Below, one piece after another: positions 14,412 through 18,073 of a stretch of 18,073 bases of DNA. This stretch comes from a virus (lineage: Duplodnaviria; Heunggongvirae; Uroviricota; Caudoviricetes). Every line of letters starts with the position of its first letter. Within the stretch, counting starts at the first letter, position 1. Under the pieces are notes generated by a model that saw only the letters and a program-made list of their open reading frames with translations, searched no databases and was not told where the DNA came from. The stretch spans positions 1-18,073 of IMG/VR virus record IMGVR_UViG_2690316325_000011. One strand, written 5' to 3'. Made by a program: the position numbers and the translations under genes.

Positions 14412-14437
14412 AAGACTAAAACGTTGGTTTGGGGGAA
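14412..14437 (+). other. Crossover site 1 (26-bp Gin/Cin-type inversion site), in the invertase promoter region
   Basis: AAGACTAAAACG-TT-GGTTTGGGGGAA. The right half and TT core are conserved with the other sites; the left half is divergent. Lies 55 to 80 bp upstream of the invertase ATG. Confidence 0.7.
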
Positions 14438-14890
14438 GGCTCTGCACTGCCTGTTGGTGTGCCCGTTCCGTGGCCCTTAGAAACACCGCCAACGGGGTGG
14501 CTGAAATGTAACGGAGCAGCATTTTCTTCTGAAAAGTACCCAAATCTGGCAAAGGCTTACCCTACTAATAAATTGCCTGATTTACGCGGTGAATTTATTC
14601 GTGGCTGGGATGACGGACGTGGTGTGGATGCCGGGCGACAATTATTATCTTCACAGGGGGATGCAATAAGAAATATTGAGGGATTCGCAGATGGCGGGAT
14701 CGGTATGTCTTTTGATGCAATCAGAGGGGCTTTTTACGATGCAGGAACACGATCAGCGAGAATGCCGAATAACACAACTACTATAGACAAAACCGATGAC
14801 CTTGGATTCGACGCCTCTCGTGTCGTGCCAACAGCTAATGAAAACCGTCCTCGTAATATTGCCTTTAATTATATCGTAAGGGCGGCATAA
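14426..14890 (+). CDS. Promoterless tail-fibre C-terminal (receptor-binding tip) cassette A
   Basis: Coding frame begins at the first base right of the site-1 core, with no ATG or SD (track start is TTG). Conserved 5' module GEGSALPVGVPVPWP..TPPTGWLKCNGAAFSSEKYPNLAK.YPT.KLPDLRGEFIRGWDDGRG (tail-collar-like), variable middle, conserved end RPRNIAFNYIVRAA, stop TAA inside the left half of site 2. Confidence 0.8.
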   Translation, partial: GLGEGSALPVGVPVPWPLETPPTGWLKCNGAAFSSEKYPNLAKAYPTNKLPDLRGEFIRGWDDGRGVDAGRQLLSSQGDAIRNIEGFADGGIGMSFDAIRGAFYDAGTRSARMPNNTTTIDKTDDLGFDASRVVPTANENRPRNIAFNYIVRAA

Positions 14891-14909
14891 AAACGTTGGT
14901 TTGGGGGAA
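14884..14909 (+). other. Crossover site 2
   Basis: GGCATAAAAACG-TT-GGTTTGGGGGAA. The left half contains the cassette A stop codon. Confidence 0.75.
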
Positions 14910-15466
14910 GGCTCATCAGCTCAGTAGTGCCACTAACAGCACGTCTGAAGTGCTGGCCGCCACACCGAAAGCTGTCAAGGCTGCATATGACCTGGCTAAC
15001 GGGAAGTATACAGCCCAGGATGCAACCACGACACAAAAAGGGATAGTTCAGCTCAGTAGCGACACCAACAGCACTTCTGAAACATTAGCTGCAACGCCAA
15101 AAGCGGTTAAAGCTGCATACGATCTAGCAGCCGGAAAGGCACCATCCAGTCATACACATCCCTGGAATCAGATCACTGGTGTGCCAACAGCTTCATTGAC
15201 AGCGAAAGGCATCACTCAGCTCAGTAGTGCCACTAACAGCACGTCTGAAGTGCTGGCCGCTACACCGAAAGCTGTCAAGGCTGCATATGATTTGGCTAAT
15301 GGAAAGCAAGCGGCAGACGCTACGCTCACTGCTCTAGCGGCACTAGCTACCGCAGCAGATAAACTCCCTTATTTCACAGGGGTTGATCGTGCCGCGTTAA
15401 CTGCACTGACAAGTGTTGGACGTGCAATTCTTAGTAAGCCCAGTATTCAGAGCGTTCTTAATTACC
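14898..15466 (+). other. Captured fragment of a tail-fibre constant region carrying three tail-fibre repeat units
   Basis: Open frame encoding three copies of QLSS(A/D)TNSTSE(V/T)LAATPKAVKAAYDLA; nucleotide copies at 14917..14990 and 15217..15290 are identical except for one base. It ends ...LNYL at site 3. From site 2 in the cassette frame the reading is GLGEGSSAQ then stop (TAG 14925..14927), so it is not a functional cassette. Confidence 0.6.
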
Positions 15467-15480
15467 TTGGTTTAGGGGAA
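15455..15480 (+). other. Crossover site 3 (constant/variable junction type; most symmetric site)
   Basis: TTCTTAATTACC-TT-GGTTTAGGGGAA. Left half resembles Gin/Cin-family half-sites (TTC.T..A..ACC) and is coding (LNYL) with no stop, unlike sites 2, 4, 5 and 6. Confidence 0.7.
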
Positions 15481-15975
15481 GGCTCGGCGCTGCCCGTTGG
15501 TGTACCTGTTCCATGGCCCTCAGCCACACCACCAACGGGGTGGCTGAAATGTAACGGAGCAGCATTTTCTTCTGAAAAGTACCCAAATCTGGCAAAGGTT
15601 TACCCAACGTTAAAATTACCTGATTTACGCGGTGAGTTTATCCGTGGTTGGGATGATTCGAGAGGGATTGATACAGGGCGTTCATTGCTAAGTGGTCAGA
15701 CTGCAACATTTATTCGTACAGCTTTGCAGGATTATTACGGTGTCGATCTGACTACTAATGTCAAAGTAGGTATCGCTTATGCTACTGCTGATTCTGTTAT
15801 AACTGTTGGAAACCCTGCTAATCCTAAAGCAGGAGATAATAGCGATTATGTTCCAGCATCATCAGATAACTCCATAACAGGCACTCAAAGGACGGCAGAG
15901 GATAATTTTACCGGGGCATGGATATCAATGCGCCCCCGCAACGTTGCTTTTAATTACATCGTAAGGGCAGCATGA
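15469..15975 (+). CDS. Promoterless tail-fibre C-terminal cassette C (3' part of track ORF 14896..15975)
   Basis: Same conserved 5' module and RPRNVAFNYIVRAA end as the other cassettes; distinct variable middle; stop TGA inside the left half of site 4. Confidence 0.8.
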   Translation, partial: GLGEGSALPVGVPVPWPSATPPTGWLKCNGAAFSSEKYPNLAKVYPTLKLPDLRGEFIRGWDDSRGIDTGRSLLSGQTATFIRTALQDYYGVDLTTNVKVGIAYATADSVITVGNPANPKAGDNSDYVPASSDNSITGTQRTAEDNFTGAWISMRPRNVAFNYIVRAA

Positions 15976-15994
15976 AAACGTTGGTTTGGGGGAA
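15969..15994 (+). other. Crossover site 4
   Basis: AGCATGAAAACG-TT-GGTTTGGGGGAA. Confidence 0.75.
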
Positions 15995-16453: not shown

Positions 16454-16472
16454 AAACGTTGGTTTGGGAGAA
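16447..16472 (+). other. Crossover site 5
   Basis: GGCATAAAAACG-TT-GGTTTGGGAGAA. Confidence 0.75.
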
Positions 16473-16961
16473 GGCTCTGCATTACCTGTTGGTGTCCCTG
16501 TTCCGTGGCCTTCAGCCACTCCGCCAACAGGCTGGCTGAAATGCAACGGTGCAGCATTTTCTTCTGAAAAGTACCCAAATCTGGCAAAGGTTTACCCCAC
16601 TAATAAATTGCCGGATCTACGGGGCGAATTTATTCGCGGCTGGGATGACGGGCGGGGGATTGATCCAGGTCGCTCTATTTTAAGCGAGCAAGGATATGCA
16701 ACGGAGGATCATGCTCACGGATTACCGTCAAAATCAACCGTAGCAACTGACAGCTCAATTAATTTCTACTTTGACGAGGCATGGGCTACTAGTGGTAATA
16801 CGGGAGTTATCAGATGGGGGAACACAAGCGATGCAGGATTGCCAGCCCCTAATTATGGAACTTTTAAAACATATAAACAGTCCGTAGCTAATTTAGGTAC
16901 TGCTGGCTTAGAAACCCGCCCTCGTAATATTGCATTTAATTATATTGTGAGGGCGGATTAA
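16461..16961 (+). CDS. Promoterless tail-fibre C-terminal cassette E
   Basis: Conserved 5' module (near-identical to cassette D over roughly 120 bp), distinct variable middle containing EDHAHG, end RPRNIAFNYIVRAD. Stop lies 5 bp from the convergent tail-fibre assembly gene stop. Confidence 0.8.
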   Translation, partial: GLGEGSALPVGVPVPWPSATPPTGWLKCNGAAFSSEKYPNLAKVYPTNKLPDLRGEFIRGWDDGRGIDPGRSILSEQGYATEDHAHGLPSKSTVATDSSINFYFDEAWATSGNTGVIRWGNTSDAGLPAPNYGTFKTYKQSVANLGTAGLETRPRNIAFNYIVRAD

Positions 16962-16966
16962 TTATA

Positions 16967-17578
16967 TCAACTGGCTGTAGAAAGTTGTTTTTCAGGCCAG
17001 TTGAGATCTGGTGCCGTGGTTAAATCCATCGCGTTCAGCTCGTCTATATAATCTAGCACGGAGTTAAGCTGCGTGGTTTCTGCCTGCGTCAACTTCCGTC
17101 CAGCCCGTAATTTCAACTGAATCAGACTAATGGAATCCATCGCAGTATCAATCAATGACTGACGTTTTGTTTCTGCTGCCTCTACAGCTGCACTATGTTG
17201 AGCCTCAGTATCAACCACCCATTTCTCTCCATCCCATTTGTCGTATGGTGTTAGCGGGGCGATAGTGGTTGTATTTTCCGGATAGTCACCCAACACCGTG
17301 ATTTCTTCGGGATTCCCTGTGTCAATGCTATAGACAGTTTCGCCACGATGATCTGGCACATACTCCCATGAACTTAAATCCTCTGAACGGAGAATCGCAT
17401 AACCTGCTTTATGTGAGCCTGGAGCATCCAAACAAGAATGTGCCGGAATACCAACGCCAACAGCAAGATATTCAGTTGATGCAGAAATATATTCCCGATT
17501 ACCACCATCATAGTTATAAACGATAATGTTTCCTGCCTGTATGGCTATAAGTTCGCTATTTAATATCGCATTATCCAT
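16967..17578 (-). CDS. Tail-fibre assembly protein (Tfa/U-like chaperone)
   Basis: 203 aa; ATG overlaps the cassette F stop (TAATG), so it is translationally coupled. C-terminal region ...LDYIDELNAMDLTTAPDLNWPEKQ is typical of caudoviral tail-fibre assembly proteins as I recall. It is the only such gene in the window. Confidence 0.8.
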   Translation of the reverse strand: MDNAILNSELIAIQAGNIIVYNYDGGNREYISASTEYLAVGVGIPAHSCLDAPGSHKAGYAILRSEDLSSWEYVPDHRGETVYSIDTGNPEEITVLGDYPENTTTIAPLTPYDKWDGEKWVVDTEAQHSAAVEAAETKRQSLIDTAMDSISLIQLKLRAGRKLTQAETTQLNSVLDYIDELNAMDLTTAPDLNWPEKQLSTAS

Positions 17579-18039
17579 TATGCTGCTCTCACAATATAAT
17601 TGAAGGCAATGTTACGTGGGCGGGTTTCATTCCCCCCAGATAACTCCGTTCTGTATTGACTGGTAAATTTACCATTAATCGCTCCTTCTTGGACGGCGTT
17701 ATCTGTCGACAACAGGCTATCCCCCCCTCTGTCATTTGGCACCAATACCGTGTTATCCCACGCGTCCCATGACCGAATATTATGATAATGACTTCCTGTT
17801 AACCACCCCTGTATGCTTAAGATGACCCTTCCCGCATCCACACCTCGCCCATCATCCCAACCACGGATAAACTCACCGCGTAAATCAGGTAATTTTAACG
17901 TTGGGTAAACCTTTGCCAGATTTGGGTACTTTTCAGAAGAAAATGCTGCGCCATTGCATTTCAGCCACCCCGTTGGCGGTGTTTCTAAGGGCCACGGAAC
18001 GGGCACGCCAACGGGCAGTGCAGAGCCTTCCCCCAAACC
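17578..18039 (-). CDS. Tail-fibre C-terminal cassette F (minus-strand array, followed by the assembly gene)
   Basis: Begins at the core of the inverted site 6; conserved 5' module, distinct variable middle, conserved RPRNIAFNYIVRAA end. Its 5' module is a patchwork of A-like and C-like sequence. Confidence 0.8.
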   Translation of the reverse strand, partial: GLGEGSALPVGVPVPWPLETPPTGWLKCNGAAFSSEKYPNLAKVYPTLKLPDLRGEFIRGWDDGRGVDAGRVILSIQGWLTGSHYHNIRSWDAWDNTVLVPNDRGGDSLLSTDNAVQEGAINGKFTSQYRTELSGGNETRPRNIAFNYIVRAA

Positions 18040-18053
18040 AACGTTTTTATGCC
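18028..18053 (-). other. Crossover site 6, inverted relative to sites 1-5
   Basis: Reverse complement reads GGCATAAAAACG-TT-GGTTTGGGGGAA. Its left half contains the stop codon of a further minus-strand cassette. Confidence 0.75.
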
Positions 18054-18073
18054 GCCCTTACGATATAATTAAA
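18047..18073 (-). CDS. 3' end of another minus-strand tail-fibre cassette; coding body lies beyond the window
   Basis: Reverse complement of 18050..18073 encodes FNYIVRAA followed by TAA (18047..18049), the conserved cassette terminus. Confidence 0.6.
   Translation of the reverse strand, partial: FNYIVRAA

What the first reader, a model, noticed from the sequence alone, without database searches (positions are those of the whole stretch)
14412..18073. Multi-site invertible tail-fibre cassette cluster with at least six crossover sites
Most invertible fibre segments (Mu G, P1 C) have two sites and two alternative tips. Here I read six 26-bp sites with identical TT cores (14412, 14884, 15455, 15969, 16447 direct; 18028 inverted), five complete silent cassettes, and a seventh cassette end at the edge. 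Each cassette starts exactly at a site core and ends with a stop embedded in the next site's left half. This implies combinatorial host-range switching by the adjacent invertase, as described for the p15B Min system if my recollection is right. The expressed constant part of the fibre gene is not in the window.
Basis: partly seen in the sequence, partly recalled or inferred. Interest (0 to 1): 0.85.

Follow-up and report, generated by a model that had tools for sequence, protein, structure and literature searches.

The report
p15B-type Min tail-fibre inversion cluster
This is a P1-like phage-plasmid's copy of the long-known p15B "Min" system, where one DNA invertase shuffles a row of alternative tail-fibre tips; it is real and correctly recognised but ordinary, apart from an odd displaced piece of the fibre gene.

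Summary
They match the published mix sites of plasmid p15B. The site at 14412 is identical to mixMI''L'. The adjacent 190-aa serine invertase is 73% identical to P1 Cin and carries a Cin-enhancer homologue and a neighbouring pseudo-invertase. The window is a whole 18,073-bp draft contig of a P1-like phage-plasmid (darA, lydA/B, then min). Related plasmids carry the same cassettes in different orders and orientations. In one pair, a 3.5-kb block is inverted with the exchange mapped to the 7 nt TT-GGTTT. So the Min reading is supported, and the system is already known.

Three corrections:
- Switching picks one tip out of n; it does not build the protein combinatorially.
- Two cassettes end at a single tail-fibre-assembly gene, not in a site.
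- The 359-aa "cassette" is really the last ~560 bp of the constant fibre gene, with its constant-type site at 15455, fused to a tip.

That piece is inverted and sits inside the array. It is joined by a non-core, out-of-frame junction found in no other record searched. It is either a lineage-specific illegitimate rearrangement or an assembly problem. Interest is low.

The parts
13363..13653 (+). Pseudo-invertase: cin/pin-like promoter and the first ~60 codons, with in-frame stops, truncated
   Evidence: 87% identical to the P1 cin promoter plus 5' coding region. The P1 record annotates the same stretch as homologous to p15B nt 7147-7408.
13785..14357 (-). min-type DNA invertase gene (190 aa from the ATG at 14357; the TTG at 14366 is a mechanical ORF start)
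   Evidence: Pfam Resolvase plus HTH_7. Matches Gin structures 3uj3/4m6f at E about 1e-92. 138/190 identical to P1 Cin. The exact sequence is UniRef Q05517_ECOLX 'DNA-invertase'.
14268..14339 (-). Homologue of the Cin recombinational enhancer, inside the 5' end of min
   Evidence: About 80% identical over 72 nt to the annotated P1 enhancer, at the same offset (nt 18-90) in the gene. Fis binding was not tested.
14412..14437 (+). mix site 1, the fixed min-proximal end of the array (AAGACTAAAACG TT GGTTTGGGGGAA)
   Evidence: Its reverse complement is identical to published p15B mixMI''L'. The same left half is the outermost site in all 16 relatives whose locus includes min.
14426..14890 (+). Silent tip cassette (153-aa ORF), Collar domain
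   Evidence: The identical protein is found on 40 contigs, on either strand relative to min.
14884..14909 (+). mix site 2; its left half holds the stop of the preceding cassette
   Evidence: Both half-sites occur among the p15B mix sites.
14908..15467 (+). Displaced 3' end of the constant fibre gene Sc (Phage_fiber_2 repeats). It joins site 2 through a non-core junction at about 14910-14916 and is out of frame with the site
   Evidence: 99.6% identical to the Sc end of pF11-4. Pfam Phage_fiber_2 at E 3e-54. Homologous to P1 S residues 178-468. The junction is unique. The frame was checked.
15455..15480 (+). mix site 3, the constant-region (Sc-type) site (TTCTTAATTACC TT GGTTTAGGGGAA), read through in frame as ...LNYL|GLGEG
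   Evidence: Its left half, with flank TTCAGAGCG, is the Sc end in all relatives. It differs by 1 nt in that half from p15B mixQ''R'.
15469..15975 (+). Tip cassette fused in frame to the displaced Sc fragment
   Evidence: The same cassette (cluster 0) is fused to intact Sc in L001, L008 and L009.
15969..15994 (+). mix site 4
15983..16453 (+). Silent tip cassette (155-aa ORF)
16447..16472 (+). mix site 5 (right half GGTTTGGGAGAA)
16461..16961 (+). Tip cassette at the left end of the central segment (165-aa ORF, ends ...IVRAD*, no site after it)
   Evidence: The central 1579-1585-bp segment is conserved in all relatives.
16967..17578 (-). Tail-fibre assembly (chaperone) gene, the only one in the cluster
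   Evidence: Pfam Caudo_TAP at E 3e-30. No similarity to P1 U or U' at E<1e-3.
17578..18039 (-). Tip cassette at the right end of the central segment (152-aa ORF); its stop overlaps the ATG of the assembly gene
18028..18053 (-). mix site 6, the only inverted one in the window
18047..18073 (-). Last 27 nt (…FNYIVRAA*) of a further cassette, cut by the contig end
   Evidence: 18023-18073 is the exact reverse complement of 14864-14914.

Best explanation
The region is a Min-type multiple DNA-inversion system, as first described on plasmid p15B, carried by a P1-like phage-plasmid.

How it works: a Din-family serine invertase (13785-14357, minus strand) acts with a Fis-type enhancer inside its own gene. 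It pairs any two mix sites that lie in inverted orientation, cuts at the central TT and exchanges the halves. Each site's right half is the first codons (GLGEG...) of a ~150-aa tip cassette with a phage tail collar domain. Each left half is one of three things: the 3' end and stop of another cassette, the end of the constant fibre gene, or the fixed flank next to min.

Every inversion spans a central segment made of two convergent cassettes and one assembly-chaperone gene. Sites to its left therefore stay direct and sites to its right stay inverted. Only the cassette fused to the constant part is translated, so the phage makes one of n alternative fibre tips. An array of n sites has 2(n-1)! 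arrangements.

What is shown here: the sites, the invertase, the enhancer homology, the cassette architecture, and isomers among relatives with exchange at the core. What is inferred: activity in this particular strain, Fis dependence, and host-range consequences.

This contig has an added oddity. The last ~560 bp of the constant gene, with its site and a fused tip, lie inverted inside the array behind a non-core junction. The most likely cause is an illegitimate inversion that split the fibre gene.
For: - Sites: six at the stated coordinates with TT cores, against 0.01 expected by chance. They match the published p15B mix sites, one of them exactly, and align 12-2-12 with P1 cixL/cixR.
- Invertase: Resolvase plus HTH_7 domains, Gin structures at E 1e-92, 73% identical to Cin, and an exact match to UniRef Q05517_ECOLX.
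- Enhancer homologue at the same position as in cin. The pseudo-invertase remnant lies at the p15B-like position.
- Backbone is P1-like: darA, lydA/B and the LPdar late promoter.
- Cassettes have a conserved 77-aa N-terminus, a variable middle and a conserved C-terminus RPRNIAFNYIVRAA. All carry the Collar domain.
- Relatives: the complete arrays have 3-10 sites, always + sites, then the ~1.58-kb centre, then - sites. The same cassettes (>=98.5% identical) occur in different orders and on both strands.
- L009 against L015: a 3531-bp block that is 99.97% identical is inverted relative to a backbone that is 99.5% identical. The left halves are swapped, and the exchange maps to TT-GGTTT.
- The formula 2(n-1)! 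gives 240 for n=6, which is the figure I recall for p15B.
Against: - There are no reads for this strain, so inversion here is not shown.
- The constant 5' part and its promoter are not in the contig.
- The displaced Sc fragment means the fibre gene may be broken in this plasmid. A fusion through site 14884 would read GLGEGSSAQ*.
- The order of segments in a short-read contig that passes through a 51-nt exact repeat may be mis-resolved.
- The single assembly gene is antisense to the fibre gene in half of the isomers, and no late promoter was found inside the array. Chaperone supply in those isomers is unexplained.
- That Q05517 is the p15B Min entry rests on my memory.
Confidence: 0.9

Rival explanations
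1. The array is a crippled remnant. An illegitimate inversion cut the constant fibre gene in its repeat region, so this plasmid no longer makes a switchable fibre (or any fibre), even if Min still shuffles the segments.
For: - The Sc 3' end is on the + strand inside the array only here. In 14 of 14 relatives it is on the other strand, outside the array.
- The junction lies 17-20 bp from the core, with only AAGGC/TCA microhomology to native Sc.
- The standard frame stops after 9 codons.
- Relatives show comparable damage. pF11-4 has lost the right half of its Sc site through a deletion.
- P1-like plasmids with disabled tail-fibre switches are reported (PMC6906374).
Against: - The 5' part of Sc is outside the contig, so an intact second copy (a duplication rather than a split) cannot be excluded.
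- The invertase, the enhancer homologue and all six sites are intact.
Confidence: 0.3
2. The unusual order (cassette, then Sc fragment, then cassette) is an assembly artefact of a short-read draft built from a mixed population of isomers. The true plasmid has the standard p15B-like layout.
For: - The window is an entire draft contig, CYEA01000047.1.
- It ends in a 51-nt stretch that is the exact reverse complement of 14864-14914, which abuts the odd junction.
- Long-read assemblies of relatives also show artefacts at this locus. AR_0372 has an extra 5.2-kb record and a palindromic record end.
Against: - Cassette starts and native Sc share only about 6-9 nt at the junction. A graph mis-join there is not expected, and the k-mers spanning GGCTCATCAGCTCAG must exist in the reads.
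- A mis-resolved repeat could change which cassette precedes the junction, but could not create the junction itself.
Confidence: 0.2
3. The isomers seen among relatives arise by RecA-dependent homologous recombination between the ~200-bp conserved, inverted 5' parts of cassettes, not by site-specific recombination.
For: Inverted repeats of 217-259 nt at 83-91% identity flank the centre.
Against: - In L009 against L015 the exchange interval is only 7 nt, TT-GGTTT. The cassettes keep their own distinguishing right halves (A against G at position 6) and downstream differences.
- Different left and right half combinations across relatives always break at the core.
- An intact invertase with an enhancer homologue is adjacent.
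Confidence: 0.04

Closest known systems
Min multiple-inversion system of E. coli 15T- plasmid p15B (GenBank X62121; Sandmeier, Iida, Arber and colleagues 1990-92)
   Same: - The mix half-sites are the same; site 14412 is identical to mixMI''L'.
- The invertase is 73% identical to Cin, and its exact sequence equals UniRef Q05517.
- min reads away from the array.
- The enhancer homologue and pseudo-invertase lie at matching distances.
- Architecture: ~0.5-kb cassettes plus a ~1.58-kb central segment. This fits the site spacing given for X62121 in PMC3241671 Table 4.
- P1-related backbone.
   Different: - p15B has six sites in 3.5 kb. This contig already shows six without reaching a normal constant-gene junction, so it has at least seven.
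- The end of the constant gene and its site are displaced into the array.
- I could not align directly to X62121, which is in none of the collections.
Cin/C-segment of phage P1 (and Gin/G-segment of Mu)
   Same: - Din-family invertase with an enhancer in the 5' end of the gene.
- 26-bp 12-2-12 sites with a TT/AA core.
- The site sits at the constant/variable junction of the fibre gene S...IQYLGL in P1 corresponds to ...LNYLGL here.
- The constant-part repeats are homologous.
   Different: - P1 has two sites and two large tips (Sv and Sv', about 520 aa), each with its own chaperone (U, U').
- Here there are at least six sites and ~150-aa collar-domain tips.
- There is one chaperone, unrelated to U or U' at E<1e-3.
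- cin reads towards the segment, whereas min reads away from it.
Two-site invertible tail-fibre loci of E. coli prophages, e.g. EC958 Phi2 (PMC4134206)
   Same: - A Phage_fibre_2 constant part is fused to Collar-domain 3' cassettes.
- The sites are very similar (TCCTCAATTACC TT GGTTTAGGAGAA and ...AAACG TT GGTTTGGGGGAA).
- PacBio read-level evidence of switching exists there.
   Different: Only two sites and one invertible segment, in a chromosomal prophage.
R64-type shufflon (Rci)
   Same: Multiple overlapping invertible segments choose one of several C-termini for a surface-recognition protein.
   Different: Rci is a tyrosine recombinase with 19-bp sfx repeats and acts on the pilV adhesin. 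Here the recombinase is a serine invertase with 12-2-12 sites.

Membership tests
p15B Min-type multiple inversion system | Din-subfamily serine DNA invertase encoded next to the invertible region | tested here: met
   Resolvase plus HTH_7 domains. Gin structures at E 1e-92. 73% identical to Cin. The ATG lies 67 bp from the core of site 1.
p15B Min-type multiple inversion system | 26-bp 12-2-12 crossover sites matching the mix sequences, all with the same non-palindromic core dinucleotide | tested here: met
   Six sites, all with TT (AA on the other strand). Site 14412 is identical to mixMI''L', and the other half-sites are identical or 1-2 nt from published mix halves.
p15B Min-type multiple inversion system | More than two sites, in both orientations, defining overlapping invertible segments around a central convergent segment | tested here: met
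   Five sites on + and one on -, with the 1581-bp centre between cores 16459 and 18040.
p15B Min-type multiple inversion system | One site at the end of a constant 5' fibre-gene part, so that inversion fuses alternative 3' cassettes in frame | tested here: inconclusive
   A constant-type site (15455) is fused in frame to a cassette. However, it sits on a displaced 560-bp fragment, and the 5' part is outside the contig. The feature is met in 14 relatives.
p15B Min-type multiple inversion system | Recombinational enhancer in cis (Fis-dependent) | tested here: met
   Met by homology only: about 80% identical over 72 nt to the annotated P1 enhancer, at the same place in the gene. Fis binding cannot be tested with these tools.
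p15B Min-type multiple inversion system | Population of isomers produced by inversion at the cores | not testable with these tools
   No reads are available for this strain. In relatives, the same cassettes are permuted and inverted, and L009 against L015 differ by one inversion with exchange inside TT-GGTTT.
P1 Cin / Mu Gin two-site G/C-segment | Exactly two inverted sites bounding one segment with Sv-U and Sv'-U' gene pairs | tested here: not met
   Six sites are present. The cassettes and chaperone show no similarity to P1 Sv, Sv', U or U' at E<1e-3.
R64-type shufflon | Rci tyrosine recombinase and 19-bp sfx repeats | tested here: not met
   The only recombinase is a serine invertase, and the sites are 12-2-12 Din-type.

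The most novel reading that the evidence does not exclude
The displaced piece is real and not a dead end. An illegitimate, non-core inversion has carried the last ~560 bp of the 'constant' fibre gene, with its own mix site, into the invertible array. This would create a module bounded by mix sites on both sides. It would show that the constant/variable boundary of Min-type fibre genes can move, and would offer a route by which fibres of different length or multi-segment variable parts evolve.
Probability: 0.15. Interest if true: 0.4.

Novelty: already known. Interest (0 to 1): 0.2.

Why it matters
The main value is for annotation and assembly. These arrays are widespread: the region finds 284 PLSDB plasmids and about half of complete E. 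coli genomes, many of these being partial matches to cassette-like DNA, chromosomal prophages included. Yet they are annotated as strings of separate 'phage tail protein' genes, and they break or scramble assemblies. Recognising them as Min-type switches explains contig ends such as this one and the pseudogene calls in relatives. The relatives examined reach ten sites, which gives 2x9! = 725,760 arrangements and ten alternative tips, against six sites in p15B. That is relevant to the host range of P1-like phage-plasmids, which spread resistance genes. None of this is conceptually new.

Tried and rejected
- **Primary papers.** The p15B papers (PMC53420), the P1 genome paper (PMC523184) and Johnson's review (PMC4384473) are not held. 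I used the mix-site table in PMC3241671 instead.
- **The 359-aa ORF.** An exact look-up found it on no record, so no second copy of the odd junction turned up that way.
- **The junction elsewhere.** I searched for it in E. coli genomes, plasmids, viral contigs and genome contigs and found nothing.
- **Min crossover at a quasi-site in Sc (rejected).** The junction lies 17-20 bp from the core, and native Sc there does not resemble a mix site.
- **Simple de Bruijn mis-join (rejected as the origin of the junction).** The shared sequence is too short.
- **pSX12-6 as a second case of a split Sc (rejected).** Its Sc is merely shorter.
- **Promoters and terminators.** A P1 late-promoter motif scan found only LPdar at 13040. 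A sigma-70 and terminator scan of 13300-18073 was no richer than shuffles.
- **Other contigs of the same assembly.** They could not be fetched. Look-ups are by protein identity and are limited to proteins of this window.

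
Full report
**What the window is.** An exact-protein look-up shows that the window is the whole of contig CYEA01000047.1 (18,073 bp) from NCBI draft assembly GCA_001283905.2 (locus L013). Positions 94-13700 are 99.3-99.6% identical to many ~95-kb non-mobilizable E. coli plasmids. These carry P1 genes: portal, head processing, lysozyme, ssb, darA and the lydA/lydB holins. The P1 late promoter LPdar motif is present at 13040 (-). 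The element is therefore a P1-like phage-plasmid. The finding lies where P1 has cin and its C segment.

**Checking the observation.**
- The six 26-bp strings are at the stated coordinates, and each reads 12-2-12 with a central TT.
- The 18-nt core motif, allowing 3 mismatches, occurs six times against 0.01 expected from shuffles.
- ORFs open from each site.
- Translated from the core, five cassettes share an invariant ~77-aa N-terminus (GLGEGSALPVGVPVPWP...), a 60-75-aa hypervariable middle and the C-terminus RPRNIAFNYIVRAA.
- All five carry the Phage Tail Collar domain.
- Stops fall inside the next site's left half for three cassettes. The other two flank the only tail-fibre assembly gene (16967-17578, -, Caudo_TAP). 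One converges on it, and the other overlaps its ATG.

**What it is.**
- *Invertase.* The gene at 13785-14357 (-) encodes a 190-aa serine recombinase with Resolvase and HTH_7 domains. It matches the Gin invertase structures at E about 1e-92 and is 73% identical to P1 Cin. Its exact sequence is UniRef Q05517_ECOLX 'DNA-invertase'.
- *Enhancer.* Nucleotides 18-90 of the gene are about 80% identical to the annotated Cin enhancer, at the same position.
- *Pseudo-invertase.* Upstream, 13363-13653 is a stop-riddled, truncated copy of the cin promoter and 5' end (87% to P1). The P1 record notes p15B homology for the same stretch. As I recall, the p15B papers call this remnant psi-pin.
- *Sites.* The published p15B mix sites (PMC3241671, Table 3) settle the matter. 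The reverse complement of site 14412 is identical to mixMI''L' (TTCCCCCAAACC AA CGTTTTAGTCTT). Sites 14884 and 18028 combine two published half-sites. Site 15455 is the constant-gene type (mixQ''R'), 1 nt off in that half. P1 cixL and cixR align in the same 12-2-12 register.

**How it works, from comparison with relatives.** I examined 17 related loci.
- In every locus whose array is complete, the outermost site next to min has the left half AAGACTAAAACG and the outermost site at the other end has the constant-gene left half TTCTT(A/G)ATTACC. pF11-4, which has lost that second site by deletion, is the one exception. All other left halves are cassette ends with a stop.
- All sites left of a conserved 1579-1585-bp centre (cassette, then the convergent assembly gene and a second cassette) are direct. 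All sites right of it are inverted.
- Site numbers in the complete arrays run from 3 to 10.
- Cassettes that are >=98.5% identical appear in different orders and on both strands in different plasmids. Examples are L008/L010/L016 and L014/L017.
- L009 and L015 differ by a single inversion of the whole 3531-bp block. The block is 99.97% identical and the backbone 99.5%. The min-flank and constant-gene left halves are swapped while each cassette keeps its own right half. This confines the exchange to TT-GGTTT. That is the signature of site-specific exchange at the core, not of homologous recombination in the ~200-bp repeats.
- Counting arrangements for this architecture gives 2(n-1)!. For n=6 that is 240, with six alternative 3' ends. 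These are the figures I remember from the p15B papers.
- Only the cassette abutting the constant part is translated. The switch is therefore one-of-n, not combinatorial at the protein level.

**The one unusual feature.**
- *What it is.* ORF 14896-15975 is not a cassette. Positions 14908-15467 are the 3' end of the constant gene Sc: 99.6% identical to pF11-4, with Phage_fiber_2 repeats and homology to P1 S up to the cixR junction. This fragment is fused in frame at the constant-type site 15455 to a tip.
- *Why it is odd.* In 14 of 14 relatives this unique Sc end is single-copy, on the opposite strand and outside the array. Here it is inverted and internal.
- *The junction.* Its left junction, GGTTTGGGGGAAGGCTCA|TCAGCTCAG, lies 17-20 bp right of the core. 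It shares only AAGGC/TCA with native Sc (GCGAAAGGCATCACTCAGCTCAG). It puts the fragment out of frame, so the standard frame reads GLGEGSSAQ*.
- *Uniqueness.* No other record holds this junction among 5,426 complete E. coli genomes, PLSDB, IMG/VR and the GTDB representative genomes.
- *Best reading.* The most economical explanation is one illegitimate inversion with breakpoints in the last Sc repeat and just inside a + cassette. That would leave the 5' part of Sc fused to a cassette remnant elsewhere. A partial duplication is also possible.
- *Assembly caveat.* The contig ends in a 51-nt exact inverted copy of 14864-14914, which abuts the junction. The path through that repeat may therefore be mis-resolved. 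The junction k-mers themselves, however, must exist in the reads.
- *Precedent.* Damage near sites occurs in relatives too. pF11-4 has lost the right half of its constant-gene site.

**Comparison with known systems and verdict.**
- The system works like p15B Min and passes every membership feature that could be tested here. The exceptions are that an intact constant gene is not in the contig and that inversion in this strain cannot be observed.
- It differs from P1 Cin and Mu Gin in the number of sites, the small collar-domain tips and a single unrelated chaperone. It differs from the R64 shufflon in recombinase class.
- Two-site versions of the same cassette family have read-level evidence of switching in E. 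coli EC958 prophages (PMC4134206).
- The finding is real and correctly interpreted, but it is already known and common. The only unexplained items are the displaced Sc fragment and how the lone chaperone gene is expressed when the centre is flipped. I score interest at 0.2.

Noticed in passing
window 13363-13653 (+): A truncated cin/pin-like invertase pseudogene (promoter plus about 60 codons, with in-frame stops) lies between lydC-side DNA and min. It reads towards the array, as cin does in P1.
   Followed up: partly
window 18023-18073 and 14864-14914: The contig ends in a 51-nt exact inverted copy of an internal stretch (cassette end, then mix site, then GGCTC). The internal copy abuts the odd Sc junction. 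This suggests the assembly graph branched here.
   Followed up: partly
window 16967-17578 (-); L015 11403-12014: There is only one tail-fibre assembly gene for all tips. In isomers with the centre flipped (e.g. L015) it is antisense to the fibre gene. No P1 late-promoter motif was found inside the array.
   Followed up: partly
L003 (pF11-4, NZ_CP184147.1) about 9384-9400: The constant-gene mix site is destroyed by a deletion (TTCTTAATTACC TT GGTTT|TAAAGCAGG runs into the middle of a cassette). The fibre appears locked to a truncated tip, and only three sites remain.
   Followed up: partly
L007 (pSX12-6, NZ_CP142784.1); L006, L008, L010, L017: Arrays larger than p15B's six sites exist in complete plasmids: 8, 9 and 10 sites, the largest with ten alternative tips. 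RefSeq annotates them as separate or partial 'phage tail protein' genes and pseudogenes.
   Followed up: partly
L019/L020 (E. coli AR_0372, NZ_CP027129.1 and NZ_CP027133.1): A 'complete' assembly has an extra 5.2-kb linear record holding min plus cassettes. Its main plasmid record ends in an inverted duplicate of R and S. These are probably assembly artefacts of a mixed isomer population.
   Followed up: no
L001 (NZ_LR882054.1): The same cassette (cluster 0) is present twice, once on each side of the centre, in a four-site array.
   Followed up: no
window 1-93, and the two-piece matches to 94-13700: The first 93 nt do not match the P1-like plasmids that cover the rest. Many of those plasmids carry a ~1.3-kb IS200/IS605-type TnpB insertion that this contig lacks.
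   Followed up: no
window 13040-13058 (-): There is an exact match to the P1 late promoter LPdar (-22 box AAGTTACTT plus -10 TACCAT) upstream of the holin genes.
   Followed up: no
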